Shown: piece by piece, positions 20,588 to 22,238 of the stretch | Numbering within the stretch: position 1 is the stretch's first letter | Layout: every line of letters begins with the position of its first letter | Virus record (IMG/VR): IMGVR_UViG_3300006028_000001 | Location: 33,470 to 97,469 of that record | DNA from: a virus | Strand: one strand, 5' to 3' | DNA: 64,000 nucleotides | Position numbers and translations under genes: made by a program | The notes under the pieces: generated by a model | Told to the model about the DNA's origin: nothing | The model's database searches: none | The model's input: only the letters and a program-made list of their open reading frames with translations

Positions 20588-21148
20588 GTGGACAACACCG
20601 AGTCGGAGCGCCAGAGCTGCCCCCGTCGCATGACCGACTGGGGGGCACAGGAACGCGCCAAAGGACTGGACACTTGGAGCGACCGGGCCGCCATGTCCGG
20701 GCAGAACCGGGTGGGCAGGTCGTGCTCGTACTGCGGTTCACTCGACCCGGACCGATTCATGGAGCTCGTCCGGGACGGCTGGATCGTCGGACCGACCGAC
20801 AAGGACTACAAGGCGTACCTGGAGTCACCGCTCACCGACGACGAGAAGGCCGCCAAACGCCAGCGGTGGATGGACCACGACGCGGTTGCCCGGGCCGTCC
20901 GCGAGATCGGCGAGAAAGACGGCAAGACCGCCGAACAGATCCAGGCCGACCTCGACGAGCAGTGGCAGGAGCAGGCGGCCGGCTGGCTACACGGCGACCA
21001 GTCGGCGAAGTTCTACTACCAGCACCTGACGGCCGAACAGCGGACCGAGTTCATCGCCCTCTACAACGAGGGCCGGATGAAGGTTGGCTACCCGGGCCAC
21101 TTCTACCGACTGCCGTTCTTCTGCCGGTCGAGCCCGGCGGCGACGTGA
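20588..21148 (+). CDS. Hypothetical phage protein
   Basis: CSYCGS...TDKDYKAY...KFYYQHL...YPGHFY. Confidence 0.65.
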   Translation: MDNTESERQSCPRRMTDWGAQERAKGLDTWSDRAAMSGQNRVGRSCSYCGSLDPDRFMELVRDGWIVGPTDKDYKAYLESPLTDDEKAAKRQRWMDHDAVARAVREIGEKDGKTAEQIQADLDEQWQEQAAGWLHGDQSAKFYYQHLTAEQRTEFIALYNEGRMKVGYPGHFYRLPFFCRSSPAAT

Positions 21149-21363
21149 CCCGCCGCACCGCCTGGATTGTCGGGTTCCTCGCCGGCTTCGTCGCGTGGAT
21201 CGTGGCCGAGGTGTGGGCCGCGTTCGACAGCTCGACCAACACGGTGCCGCTGACCAACATCATCGTCGAGCACGTGCCGATGTGGCTCGGCTTTCCGCTG
21301 ATCGTCGCGTTCGCCGTGTGGCTGGTGCTGCACTTCTGGATCTACTGGCGGCGGCGGGCCTGA
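21145..21363 (+). CDS. Small two-TM membrane protein
   Basis: GTGA overlap; two hydrophobic helices. Confidence 0.65.
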   Translation: MTRRTAWIVGFLAGFVAWIVAEVWAAFDSSTNTVPLTNIIVEHVPMWLGFPLIVAFAVWLVLHFWIYWRRRA

Positions 21364-21414
21364 CTCTACTTGCGAAGTAGCGTCATGACGCTACCTTCCG
21401 CGCCGATACCGGAA

Positions 21415-21523
21415 CGCCGCGACCGGGATTCGAACCCAGGTCACTGGAACCGGGGCCATCGCCCCTGCGGGCCGGACTCGAACCGTCGGCTTCCGACATG
21501 CTCGGCCGCTGCACCACCGCGGC
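21415..21523 (-). ncRNA. tRNA-like RNA lacking an anticodon loop and carrying a second internal T-arm
   Basis: Minus strand: acceptor GCCGCGG/TCGCGGC, D-arm GTGC-AGCGGCCGA-GCAT, T-arm CTGGG-TTCGAAT-CCCGG, internal CGG-TTCGAGT-CCG; intergenic. Confidence 0.65.
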
Positions 21524-21569
21524 GTCCCATGCTGGCCAGCGCCACAACCGTACCGGAGGCACCCCCGCC

Positions 21570-21830
21570 ATGACCGATCCGACACCGCCGCCGAACGCCC
21601 CATCCGAACCGCTCGCGTCGATCTCGGTCATCACCGGCATCGGCGCCGCCCTCGTCGGCCTCGCCGTGTCGTTCGGGCTGCACCTGACCGTTGACCAGAA
21701 AGCCAGCGTCGTCGCCCTCATCACCGCGGCCGCGCCGATCGTGGTGTGGCTGTGGGGCCGGCGGCGCACCTACTCGCCCGCCACAGTCAGGCGCATGATG
21801 ACCCGCGGCGGCCATGAGCCGGGGTCGTGA
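21570..21830 (+). CDS. Holin-like two-TM protein
   Basis: EP...LAVSFGLHLTVDQKA...R..T.SP pattern of actinophage holins; GGAGG RBS. Confidence 0.7.
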   Translation: MTDPTPPPNAPSEPLASISVITGIGAALVGLAVSFGLHLTVDQKASVVALITAAAPIVVWLWGRRRTYSPATVRRMMTRGGHEPGS

Positions 21831-22238
21831 CGCCGCCCACGAACACGACGGCTGGACGTTCCGCCGCGGTACGGACGGCAGCGTGACCATCTGGGCCGGC
21901 GACGACCGCGAACTTGTCCTCACCGCCGCCGCGTGGATCCGGATCGTCACCGCGGTGTCGGCTGGCGGACGGCTCGCCTACCGGCAGGCGCAGGCGCTGC
22001 ACCGTGGCGCCACTGATGGGCGACCCGGGCGTTGAACCTGCAACACCCGCCGTCGATTGGCCGCTCACATCATGTGGACACGTCCCTTGCCGAACCGCCC
22101 GACCGCGATCCGCCGACCACCCGGCCGACGCCGGGTCACCGCCTACAGCCGGCGCAGACGCAGGTGGTAGACCGGTGGGTCAACCGGACACCGGCCGGCG
22201 TCGTCGACTGGCAACACCTGGATCAGCAAGGAGGCTGA
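21814..22238 (+). CDS. Two small hypothetical proteins (21814-22035, 22032-22238)
   Basis: Overlapping coupled ORFs continuing the late operon. Confidence 0.4.

What the first reader, a model, noticed from the sequence alone, without database searches (positions are those of the whole stretch)
21415..21523. Anticodon-less tRNA mimic with two T-loops, antisense to the lysis region
Seen on the minus strand: a 7-bp acceptor GCCGCGG/TCGCGGC extended by GGGAC/GTTCC with no CCA, a D-arm and a canonical T-arm. The anticodon loop is replaced by about 40 nt holding a second T-arm (CGG-TTCGAGT-CCG) and a GC hairpin, closed by GGAA(G)CCG/CGGTTCC. A TACGGT -10-like box lies ~23 nt upstream. The inner part follows the order T-arm then closed stem, as in bacterial YrlA Y RNAs. 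Inference: two tRNA elbows joined by a shared stem, unable to decode. It could be a decoy for tRNA-binding or tRNA-cleaving defence proteins, or an antisense regulator of the adjacent holin.
Basis: partly seen in the sequence, partly recalled or inferred. Interest (0 to 1): 0.85.

Follow-up and report, generated by a model that had tools for sequence, protein, structure and literature searches.

The report
Two-elbow glutamate-type phage tRNA mimic
This phage carries a real, conserved small RNA gene shaped like a glutamate tRNA whose codon-reading loop is replaced by a second, back-to-front tRNA "elbow", so it cannot decode; it most likely works as a tRNA look-alike that occupies some host tRNA-binding factor.

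Summary
Acceptor, D arm and T arm are all present, and a 43-nt insert replaces the anticodon loop.

The element is not a relic. I found 19 further distinct homologues. They lie in actinophage and provirus contigs, in metagenome contigs, and in genomes of Rhodococcus, Nocardia, Streptomyces and Oerskovia.

On the 20-sequence alignment, 91.6% of cells pair and 17 of 24 pairs show compensatory changes. No shuffle out of 500 reached these values.

The frame derives from tRNA-Glu: it has the D-loop AGCGGCC, a 4-nt variable loop, and its nearest host matches are tRNA-Glu genes.

The insert has a fixed plan:
- a covarying 3-4 bp extension of the anticodon stem;
- a second T arm that keeps every T-loop invariant;
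- a variable capped hairpin;
- an invariant D-loop-like strand, A-R-Y-GGCCC.

This is the permuted order seen in YrlA Y RNAs. It is nevertheless not a YrlA member: the Rfam model gives no hit, and none of seven carrier phage records encodes Rsr.

No excision restores an anticodon loop. Neighbouring genes differ between members, so antisense control of the holin is not a family trait.

Function is inferred only. My best guess is a non-decoding tRNA-Glu mimic, a decoy or adaptor for a host factor.

This scan has earlier noted the same nested two-elbow design, in valine- and glycine-type frames, in other phages. I found no published description.

The parts
21411..21528 (-). Whole RNA element, including the leader and trailer that extend the acceptor helix to 12 bp
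   Evidence: Sequence; Rfam tRNA model 29.8 bits over 21415-21523; family model R1 98.6 bits over 21404-21534
21517..21523 (-). Acceptor stem, 5' strand GCCGCGG
   Evidence: Pairs with 21416-21422. All 7 acceptor pairs show compensatory changes in the family
21416..21422 (-). Acceptor stem, 3' strand UCGCGGC. The next base is G21415 and no CCA is encoded
21498..21514 (-). D arm GUGC-AGCGGCCGA-GCAU, with the tRNA-Glu-type D-loop AGCGGCC that is invariant in the family
   Evidence: The nearest host matches to this arm are tRNA-Glu genes
21492..21496 (-). Anticodon-stem equivalent, 5' strand UCGGA. It pairs with 21444-21448 with one C.A mismatch
   Evidence: Helix 3 is 98% paired and 4 of its 5 pairs have compensatory changes
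21444..21448 (-). Anticodon-stem equivalent, 3' strand UCCAG
21487..21490 (-). Stem extension, 5' strand GCCG, after the bulged A21491
   Evidence: Pairs with 21449-21452. 14 of 20 members have at least 3 bp here, in 9 different sequence combinations; permutation p about 0.0006
21449..21452 (-). Stem extension, 3' strand CGGU
21473..21485 (-). Second T arm CGG-UUCGAGU-CCG
   Evidence: GGUUCRAGUCC is invariant in 20 of 20 members; only position 57 varies, G or A. The third stem pair covaries: CG 15, GC 3, UA 1
21461..21472 (-). Capped hairpin H, GCCC-GCAG-GGGC: the closed equivalent of an acceptor stem
   Evidence: The closest relatives have GCCC-GAAA-GGGC or GCCC-GCAA-GGGC. Other members have different stems with GNRA, UUCG or CUUG loops, or longer stems
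21453..21460 (-). D-loop-like joining strand GAUGGCCC. The family consensus is A-R-Y-GGCCC, with GGCCC invariant
21440..21443 (-). 4-nt variable loop UGAC. Most members have UAAC and host tRNA-Glu has UAGC or UAAC
21423..21439 (-). Canonical T arm CUGGG-UUCGAAU-CCCGG
   Evidence: Helix 5 is 99% paired and 4 of its 5 pairs are compensatory
21377..21394 (.). Perfect 18-bp palindrome GTAGCGTCATGACGCTAC between the element's 3' end and the stop of the upstream plus-strand gene. It is a candidate two-way terminator hairpin, without a U tract
   Evidence: The terminator consensus scan did not call it
21145..21363 (+). Flanking gene: 72-aa two-helix membrane protein (context only)
   Evidence: Third-position GC bias and translation
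21570..21830 (+). Flanking gene: 86-aa holin-like membrane protein with GGAGG upstream (context only)
   Evidence: phrog_9752 holin, E = 8e-5, a weak match. Third-position GC is 0.90

Best explanation
The element is a stand-alone gene for a non-decoding tRNA look-alike derived from tRNA-Glu.

What is shown: it belongs to a conserved family of 109-135-nt RNAs carried by phages and prophages of actinomycetes. A full tRNA-Glu-type body is kept: acceptor, D arm, 4-nt variable loop and T arm. The anticodon stem is lengthened by 3-4 pairs. It opens into a second, inside-out mini-tRNA made of a T arm, a capped hairpin in place of the acceptor stem, and a D-loop-like strand with GG. There is no anticodon.

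What is inferred:
- Host tRNA enzymes (RNase P, 3' trimming, T-loop modification) probably mature and stabilise the RNA.
- The inner T loop probably docks on the GG strand to form a second elbow.
- The RNA probably acts in trans as a decoy, competitive inhibitor or adaptor for a host protein that recognises the tRNA-Glu body or the tRNA elbow, for example a tRNA-targeting toxin or defence enzyme. Having no anticodon loop, it could neither be cut there nor disturb translation.
- No phage protein is shared by all carriers, so the partner should be host-encoded.
For: - Reality and selection: 20 distinct members. 91.6% of cells pair, 17 of 24 pairs have compensatory changes, and 0 of 500 shuffles reach this; slid controls give 34-51%. 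RNAalifold recovers the cloverleaf plus the second T arm on its own.
- Stem extension: it covaries in 9 sequence combinations, p about 0.0006.
- tRNA-Glu origin: the D arm's nearest matches in the Rhodococcus, Nocardia and Oerskovia genomes are tRNA-Glu(CUC/UUC) genes. These share the D-loop, position 26, the variable loop and the T arm. The family model scores ordinary tRNA-Glu genes at 65-73 bits and true members at 98-118 bits.
- Second elbow: the T-loop invariants are kept in 20 of 20 members, and GGCCC preceded by A-R-Y is kept in 20 of 20. The order T arm, closed hairpin, D-like strand matches the Rfam YrlA consensus layout.
- Non-decoding: no cut-and-join of the insert gives a canonical loop in more than 4 of 20 members, and none gives a Glu anticodon. 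Position 57 of the inner loop varies G/A, as a T loop does and an anticodon would not.
- Host-encoded partner: the only protein cluster common to all seven carrier phage records is a large 2.2-4.4 kb ORF that I take to be the tape-measure protein, by size alone. Neighbouring genes differ.
- Precedent for the decoy idea: the YrlA tRNA-like domain is not cut by the Salmonella anticodon nuclease and was proposed to be its competitive inhibitor (PMC7790460).
Against: - No transcript, processing, modification or binding has been shown for any member.
- No consensus promoter or terminator was found around the window copy. That copy lies against the direction of its neighbours.
- Acceptor stems and the base after them vary freely and run from 7 to about 15 pairs. 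This argues against one conserved charging enzyme, and it leaves open whether the ends are trimmed like a tRNA's.
- No tRNA-Glu-specific defence nuclease is known to me in actinomycetes.
- The D-like strand has no D stem, so the second elbow is a model and not a demonstrated fold. A competing hairpin (GGGGC-GAUG-GCCCC) is possible in the window copy.
- The family is rare: 5 of 185,579 species genomes match the strict pattern, and none of 150 other sampled genomes of the same class carries a member.
Confidence: 0.45

Rival explanations
1. A Y-RNA relative. The RNA would bind the host Ro60 orthologue Rsr, through the GNCGAAN0-1G-like strand or the long terminal stem, and tether it to PNPase as YrlA does.
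For: The inner module has the YrlA order. Five of 20 members carry G-N-CGAA-N-G exactly at the D-like strand (motif from PMC4201824). A related phage (G001) has a YrlA-like RNA at 41.9 bits next to a TROVE ORF. The window subgroup has a long terminal stem.
Against: The Rfam YrlA model gives no hit at E <= 10 on the window copy or E <= 5 on 11 member loci. There is no TROVE gene in G000 or in six other carrier phage records. The Rhodococcus and Streptomyces hosts lack one; only the Nocardia host has one. The motif is absent from 15 of 20 members, including the window.
Confidence: 0.08
2. A decoding tRNA-Glu gene interrupted by a small intron or mobile insert, which is removed to restore an anticodon loop.
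For: The frame is tRNA-Glu-like. Several members keep CU or NU as the 5' bulge, possibly remnants of positions 32-33. ARAGORN's intron mode produces a call.
Against: No single excision gives a Y-U-NNN-R loop in more than 4 of 20 members, and never a Glu anticodon. The insert ends are base-paired as a continuation of the stem, and that helix covaries. The insert carries conserved tRNA-like motifs, not ribozyme or bulge-helix-bulge features. Rfam reports no intron or ribozyme family above threshold. The phage has no RtcB ligase.
Confidence: 0.05
3. A cis-acting or chargeable tRNA-like element. It could be a processing or stability signal for RNase P and 3' trimming within phage transcripts. Alternatively it could be a CCA-tailed, possibly aminoacylated mimic that engages the translation or charging machinery, not a defence protein.
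For: The acceptor and T minihelix is intact at 12 bp. The core tRNA-Glu features recalled from E. coli work are mostly kept: U11-A24 in 19 of 20 members and a 4-nt variable loop in 20 of 20. In several prophages the element lies co-directionally just upstream of operons or among tRNA genes.
Against: Acceptor pairs and the discriminator are not conserved, and the anticodon determinants of GluRS are missing. In the window the element is on the strand opposite to the surrounding mRNA. Leader-trailer pairing of 5-8 extra pairs in the window subgroup would hinder end processing.
Confidence: 0.15
4. An antisense regulator of the neighbouring holin or lysis transcript in this phage.
For: The window copy is on the minus strand inside a plus-strand lysis region. 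Its putative promoter region would overlap the 5' end of the holin-like gene.
Against: The mature element overlaps no ORF. The closest relatives (L349, L334, L378) and all other members sit next to unrelated genes, mostly co-directionally. Selection acts on tRNA-type pairs and loops, not on complementarity to a target.
Confidence: 0.05
5. A decayed tRNA or attachment-site relic without function.
For: It is the only tRNA-like gene in the genome. Standard finders reject it. One prophage (L115) has tRNA debris nearby.
Against: There are 20 divergent members (mean column identity 64%) with the same plan, many compensatory changes and invariant loops. Both tRNA halves are present, which an attP core would not have. 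The element occurs in a complete phage genome with terminal repeats and in varied genomic positions.
Confidence: 0.03

Closest known systems
YrlA, the tRNA-like Y RNA of bacteria and mycobacteriophages (Rfam RF02553; Chen et al. 2014, PMC4201824)
   Same: Both contain a circularly permuted tRNA-like module closed by a helix. The order is a short linker, a T arm with full T-loop consensus, a closed hairpin in the place of the acceptor stem, then D-arm sequence with GG. Both are non-decoding and occur in actinomycete phages. A decoy role against an anticodon nuclease has been proposed for YrlA (PMC7790460).
   Different: Here the closing helix is not a Ro-binding stem but the anticodon stem of a second, complete tRNA body. 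The inner D element has no stem. The RF02553 model gives no hit. There is no linked Rsr gene, and the GNCGAAN0-1G motif is present in only 5 of 20 members.
Actinomycete tRNA-Glu (CUC/UUC)
   Same: The D arm with loop AGCGGCC, G26, a CCGCN anticodon stem, a 4-nt variable loop (UAAC or UAGC), the T arm GCGGG-UUCRAAU-CCCG and overall cloverleaf covariation all agree.
   Different: There is no anticodon loop; 41-59 nt stand in its place. The acceptor stems are unrelated to host tRNA-Glu and often longer than 7 bp. CCA is generally not encoded.
Other tRNA mimics (tmRNA tRNA-like domain, plant-virus TLS, mascRNA)
   Same: They reuse the acceptor/T-arm stack and elbow to engage tRNA enzymes without decoding.
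   Different: None has two elbows joined through an anticodon stem. Their Rfam models give no significant match here; mascRNA scores 19.8 bits against a threshold of 42.5.
Two-elbow valine- and glycine-type tRNA mimics of jumbo phages, noted earlier in this scan (unpublished AI notes e1-5673584, e1-5402500 and others)
   Same: The design principle is the same: an inside-out tRNA module replaces the anticodon loop of a tRNA body.
   Different: They have a different tRNA type, different hosts and different phage groups. The inner module here is reduced (3-bp T stem, no D stem). I did not compare sequences with those families.

Membership tests
tRNA (RF00005) | Cloverleaf with acceptor, D, anticodon and T helices supported by covariation | tested here: met
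   91.6% of cells paired; 17 of 24 pairs compensatory; 0 of 500 shuffles as high. RNAalifold agrees.
tRNA (RF00005) | 7-nt anticodon loop with U33, an anticodon and a purine at 37 | tested here: not met
   41-59 nt stand in place of the loop. No excision restores a canonical loop in more than 4 of 20 members, and none restores a Glu anticodon.
tRNA (RF00005) | Score at or above Rfam's gathering threshold, and detection by tRNA finders | tested here: inconclusive
   The window copy scores 29.8 against 29 bits, but only with permissive filters, and it is missed in the default run. Other members score 24-25 bits. Default ARAGORN is negative.
T-loop motif (second T arm) | G53, U54, U55, C56, R57, A58 and C61 with a closing G-C pair | tested here: met
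   GGUUCRAGUCC is invariant in 20 of 20 members, with only R57 varying.
YrlA (RF02553) | Match to the covariance model | tested here: not met
   No hit at E <= 10 on the window region or E <= 5 on 11 member loci. A genuine relative in L002 scores 41.9 bits.
YrlA (RF02553) | Order T arm, closed AS hairpin, D arm inside a closing helix | tested here: inconclusive
   The T arm, the closed hairpin and a D-loop-like strand are present in that order. However, there is no D stem.
YrlA (RF02553) | Encoded within about 4 kb of an Rsr (TROVE) gene on the same strand | tested here: not met
   No TROVE match in G000 or in six other carrier phage records. The Rhodococcus and Streptomyces hosts have none.
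YrlA (RF02553) | GNCGAAN0-1G motif | tested here: not met
   Present at the D-like strand in 5 of 20 members and absent from the window copy.
Intron-containing tRNA (group I or bulge-helix-bulge) | Recognisable intron fold, and exon ends that rebuild the anticodon loop | tested here: not met
   No Rfam intron family matches. No loop is restored. The insert ends form a covarying helix.
Functional small RNA in general | A transcript of defined size | not testable with these tools
   The only run that holds the stretch is a DNA metagenome.

The most novel reading that the evidence does not exclude
The element is the actinophage, glutamate-type representative of a broad, undescribed class of phage 'two-elbow' tRNA mimics. 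In this class an inside-out tRNA module replaces the anticodon loop. The mimics would neutralise or hijack host tRNA-recognising proteins, such as tRNA-targeting immunity or toxin enzymes, and would be uncleavable because the target loop is gone.
Probability: 0.25. Interest if true: 0.85.

Novelty: new variant of a known kind. Interest (0 to 1): 0.68.

Why it matters
Phage tRNA genes are now seen as counter-measures against host enzymes that destroy or block tRNAs. A conserved tRNA body that has deliberately lost its anticodon and gained a second elbow would be a different solution: a pure protein-binding mimic.

This family gives a compact, well-defined test case. It has 20 members, clear covariation and cultured hosts with prophage copies: Rhodococcus sp. 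IEGM 1330, Streptomyces fulvorobeus NBRC 15897 and Oerskovia enterophila DSM 43852. It could therefore be used to find out what such RNAs bind.

It also shows that standard tRNA and Rfam annotation silently skips this kind of gene. Finally, it links YrlA-type permuted tRNA modules to ordinary tRNA scaffolds, which bears on how Y-RNA-like molecules arise.

Tried and rejected
- Near and distant BLAST of the element and its surroundings against deposited phage genomes found nothing useful. There was no match with megablast, and only a 32-nt chance-level hit in Sinorhizobium phage phiM9.
- PHROGs and Pfam on the neighbouring ORFs gave only a weak holin hit and one family of unknown function.
- The D-loop-based pattern AGCGGCC-N14-26-GGTTCRANTCC mostly returned ordinary tRNAs and no new member.
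- RNA expression: no RNA holder is listed. The only run with the stretch is a rhizosphere DNA metagenome that may be its source.
- The sigma-70 promoter and intrinsic terminator scans found nothing in 21100-21900.
- Searches of the phage genome for Rsr/TROVE, RtcB and a CCA-adding enzyme were negative.
- A search for a phage protein shared by all seven carrier records found only one cluster, a large ORF that I take to be the tape-measure protein.
- The small hairpin GGC-GAAUG-GCC that RNAalifold proposed was set aside. It never covaries, and in short-hairpin members it competes with the better supported hairpin H.
- The idea that the inner loop UUC mimics the Glu anticodon was set aside. UUC is generic to every T loop, and the loop lies about 7 bp beyond the anticodon position.
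- The attP or attB reading was rejected. Both tRNA halves are present, the 3' parts do not match host tRNA-Glu beyond the T loop, and positions within the phage genomes vary.
- Literature searches for a description of such RNAs returned only YrlA and general reviews.

Full report
**Setting.** The window is part of a 97,469-bp IMG/VR virus record with direct terminal repeats and about 70% G+C. Plus-strand structural and lysis-region genes run up to about 22.4 kb, and minus-strand genes follow. The element lies in a 206-nt gap between two plus-strand genes. One encodes a 72-aa two-helix membrane protein (21145-21363). The other encodes an 86-aa holin-like protein (21570-21830; weak phrog_9752 hit). 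A perfect 18-bp palindrome (21377-21394) separates the element's 3' end from the upstream gene.

**The observation.** Default ARAGORN and the default Rfam run find nothing. With permissive filters, the Rfam tRNA model aligns 21415-21523 from end to end at 29.8 bits (threshold 29), and 43 nt replace the 7-nt anticodon loop. It is the only tRNA-like locus in the phage genome. ARAGORN's intron mode forces a weak 'tRNA-Arg with intron' model, which I do not accept.

**Homologues.** A scan of IMG/VR for two T loops 20-50 nt apart returned more than 119 stretches. Four of them were clear relatives of the window element. More specific patterns added members from three collections:
- IMG/VR;
- 185,579 species genomes: Rhodococcus sp. 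IEGM 1330, Nocardia sp. CA-290969, Streptomyces fulvorobeus, Oerskovia enterophila and one metagenome-assembled genome;
- metagenome contigs, including three close relatives of the window copy.

In all there are 20 distinct sequences with 64% mean column identity.

**Structure of the frame.** On the 20-sequence alignment the five helices I specified are 91.6% paired. They are the acceptor, D, anticodon-stem equivalent, inner T stem and outer T stem. Seventeen of 24 pairs have changes on both sides, and no shuffle of 500 reaches any of the five measures. Slid controls give 34-51% pairing. RNAalifold, run without my input on the first 11 sequences, predicts the same cloverleaf and the inner T hairpin.

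**tRNA-Glu origin.** The D-loop AGCGGCC is invariant and the variable loop has 4 nt, mostly UAAC. Searching four carrier genomes for the family's D arm found matches in three (Oerskovia, Nocardia, Rhodococcus; none in Streptomyces fulvorobeus). Apart from the elements themselves, five of the six remaining matches were checked with ARAGORN, and all five are tRNA-Glu(CUC/UUC) genes. Those genes share the D-loop, G26, the CCGCN stem, the variable loop UAGC or UAAC and the T arm. A covariance model of the family scores ordinary tRNA-Glu genes at 65-73 bits. It scores the window copy at 98.6 bits and the Rhodococcus copy at 118 bits.

**Structure of the insert (41-59 nt).** Five features recur.
- After 0-3 bulged bases on the 5' side (often CU or NU), the anticodon stem continues for 3-4 pairs. 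Fourteen of 20 members have at least 3 pairs, in nine different sequence combinations: GCCG/CGGU, CCCG/CGGG, GCGG/CCGC, ACG/CGU, GUGG/CCAU, GUGG/CCAC, GUCG/CGAC, GGAG/CUCU and GGUG/CGCC. Pairing each 5' strand with other members' 3' strands does this well in 0.06% of permutations.
- A 1-3-nt linker follows.
- Next comes a T arm whose 11 nt, GGUUCRAGUCC, are invariant apart from the G/A at position 57. Its third stem pair covaries.
- Then comes a hairpin H of variable sequence and length. It is capped by GNRA, UUCG or CUUG loops, or is longer in one subgroup. In the window it reads GCCC-GCAG-GGGC, and its closest relatives have GAAA or GCAA loops.
- Last is a strand with consensus A-R-Y-GGCCC, in which GGCCC is invariant. 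This repeats the A14-R15-Y16-G18-G19 pattern of a D loop, and specifically the GGCC of the tRNA-Glu D loop.

The order linker, T arm, closed hairpin, D-type strand, closing helix is that of the permuted tRNA domain of YrlA as laid out in the Rfam consensus and in Chen et al. 2014 (PMC4201824). That the inner T loop and the GG strand form a second elbow is an inference from these motifs. It is not a demonstrated fold.

**What it is not.**
- Not a spliceable tRNA. No single excision yields a Y-U-NNN-R loop in more than 4 of 20 members, and none yields a Glu anticodon. The phage has no RtcB.
- Not a relic or attachment site. The covariation, the presence of both halves and the varied positions in seven phage records argue against it.
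- Not a YrlA member. The model gives no hit. There is no TROVE gene in the window's phage or in six other carrier records, nor in the Rhodococcus and Streptomyces hosts. The Rsr-linked motif is present in only 5 of 20 members. A phage related through the 455-aa protein (G001) does carry a YrlA-like RNA next to a TROVE gene, but it has no member of this family.
- Not a family-wide antisense regulator. Neighbours include a small terminase subunit, a DNA methylase and a primase, mostly co-directional. The three closest relatives share no neighbouring protein with the window.

**Ends.** Acceptor helices run from 7 to 9 pairs in most members. The window has 12 continuous pairs. Its three closest relatives have about 15 pairs with a 3-nt bulge, using different sequences. 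CCA is generally not encoded. Whether the ends are trimmed like a tRNA's or kept as a long terminal stem cannot be decided here.

**Distribution.** The family is rare. Five of 185,579 species genomes match the strict pattern. In a sample of 150 further genomes of the same class as the Rhodococcus carrier, no listed hit exceeded the tRNA-Glu level. The best 150 of about 790 matches were listed, and the other 638 were not shown. That sample includes seven genomes flagged as unpublished (G021, G029, G038, G044, G046, G050, G057), so this negative count rests partly on them.

**Mechanism.** The following steps are shown:
- a conserved, structured, anticodon-less derivative of tRNA-Glu with a second T-loop module;
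- carriage by diverse actinomycete phages;
- no shared phage-encoded partner beyond one large ORF that I take to be the tape-measure protein.

The following steps are inferred:
- the RNA is matured and stabilised by host tRNA enzymes;
- it presents two elbows;
- it acts in trans on a host factor that recognises the tRNA body.

A decoy role has a published precedent as a proposal for YrlA (PMC7790460). I put the structural identification at about 0.85 and the decoy or adaptor function at about 0.35-0.4. The stated confidence of 0.45 covers the combined claim.

**Relation to earlier notes of this scan.** Earlier AI notes describe the same nested design in jumbo and other phages with valine- and glycine-type frames. 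Another note reads a tRNA-shaped insert as an intron. I tested the intron reading on this family and it fails. The two-elbow notes agree in design, but I did not compare their sequences. The literature searches I ran found no description of such RNAs.

**Verdict.** The function is open. This is a new variant within the known kind of tRNA mimics, with YrlA as its closest relative.

Noticed in passing
Of 93 distinct ones, 44 are ordinary tRNAs followed by a lone extra T arm. In 21, one acceptor frame spans both T arms (nested type, in several unrelated lineages). The other 28 fit neither.
   Followed up: partly
L051, L057, L062, L063, L064, L074: A low-GC phage family of double-T-arm tRNA-like RNAs. 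It has a short hairpin with a conserved GGCA tetraloop where the anticodon arm should be. A T arm, a capped hairpin and an AAUGGUA D-loop-like strand then precede the second T arm.
   Followed up: no
L349:5920-6016 (+): The metagenome contig that holds a close relative of the window element also holds a second anticodon-less tRNA-like gene (Rfam tRNA 30.3 bits). Its anticodon arm is a long rod-like hairpin capped by UGCG.
   Followed up: no
L115:680-1100 (+): Upstream of the family member in this provirus lies a cluster of odd tRNA-like pieces. It includes a 67-nt tRNA call (45 bits) and two T arms in direct tandem.
   Followed up: no
L002:7424-7530 (G001:5205-5311) and G001:3870-4049: A provirus related to the window phage through the 455-aa protein carries a YrlA-like RNA (41.9 bits, below Rfam's 69). 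It lies next to a 566-aa ORF with a TROVE (Rsr) domain and a tRNA-Ile gene.
   Followed up: partly
L028, L288, L290, L356 (hairpin H loop and 3' trailer): In this subgroup the loop of hairpin H keeps GGGUUG while its stem covaries. The 6 nt just past the acceptor 3' strand keep the exact complement CAACCC before the sequences diverge. This may be a loop-tail pairing; there is no covariation to test it.
   Followed up: partly
L004 record G003:75183-82483: A 130-kb relative of the window phage, related through the 455-aa protein, carries an array of about 30 tRNA genes downstream of that gene. The window phage has none apart from the mimic.
   Followed up: no
window 21145-21363 and 21377-21394: An unlisted 72-aa two-helix membrane protein gene starts at a GTG that overlaps the stop of the 186-aa gene. 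It is followed by a perfect 18-bp palindrome, GTAGCGTCATGACGCTAC, which could terminate transcription from both directions.
   Followed up: partly
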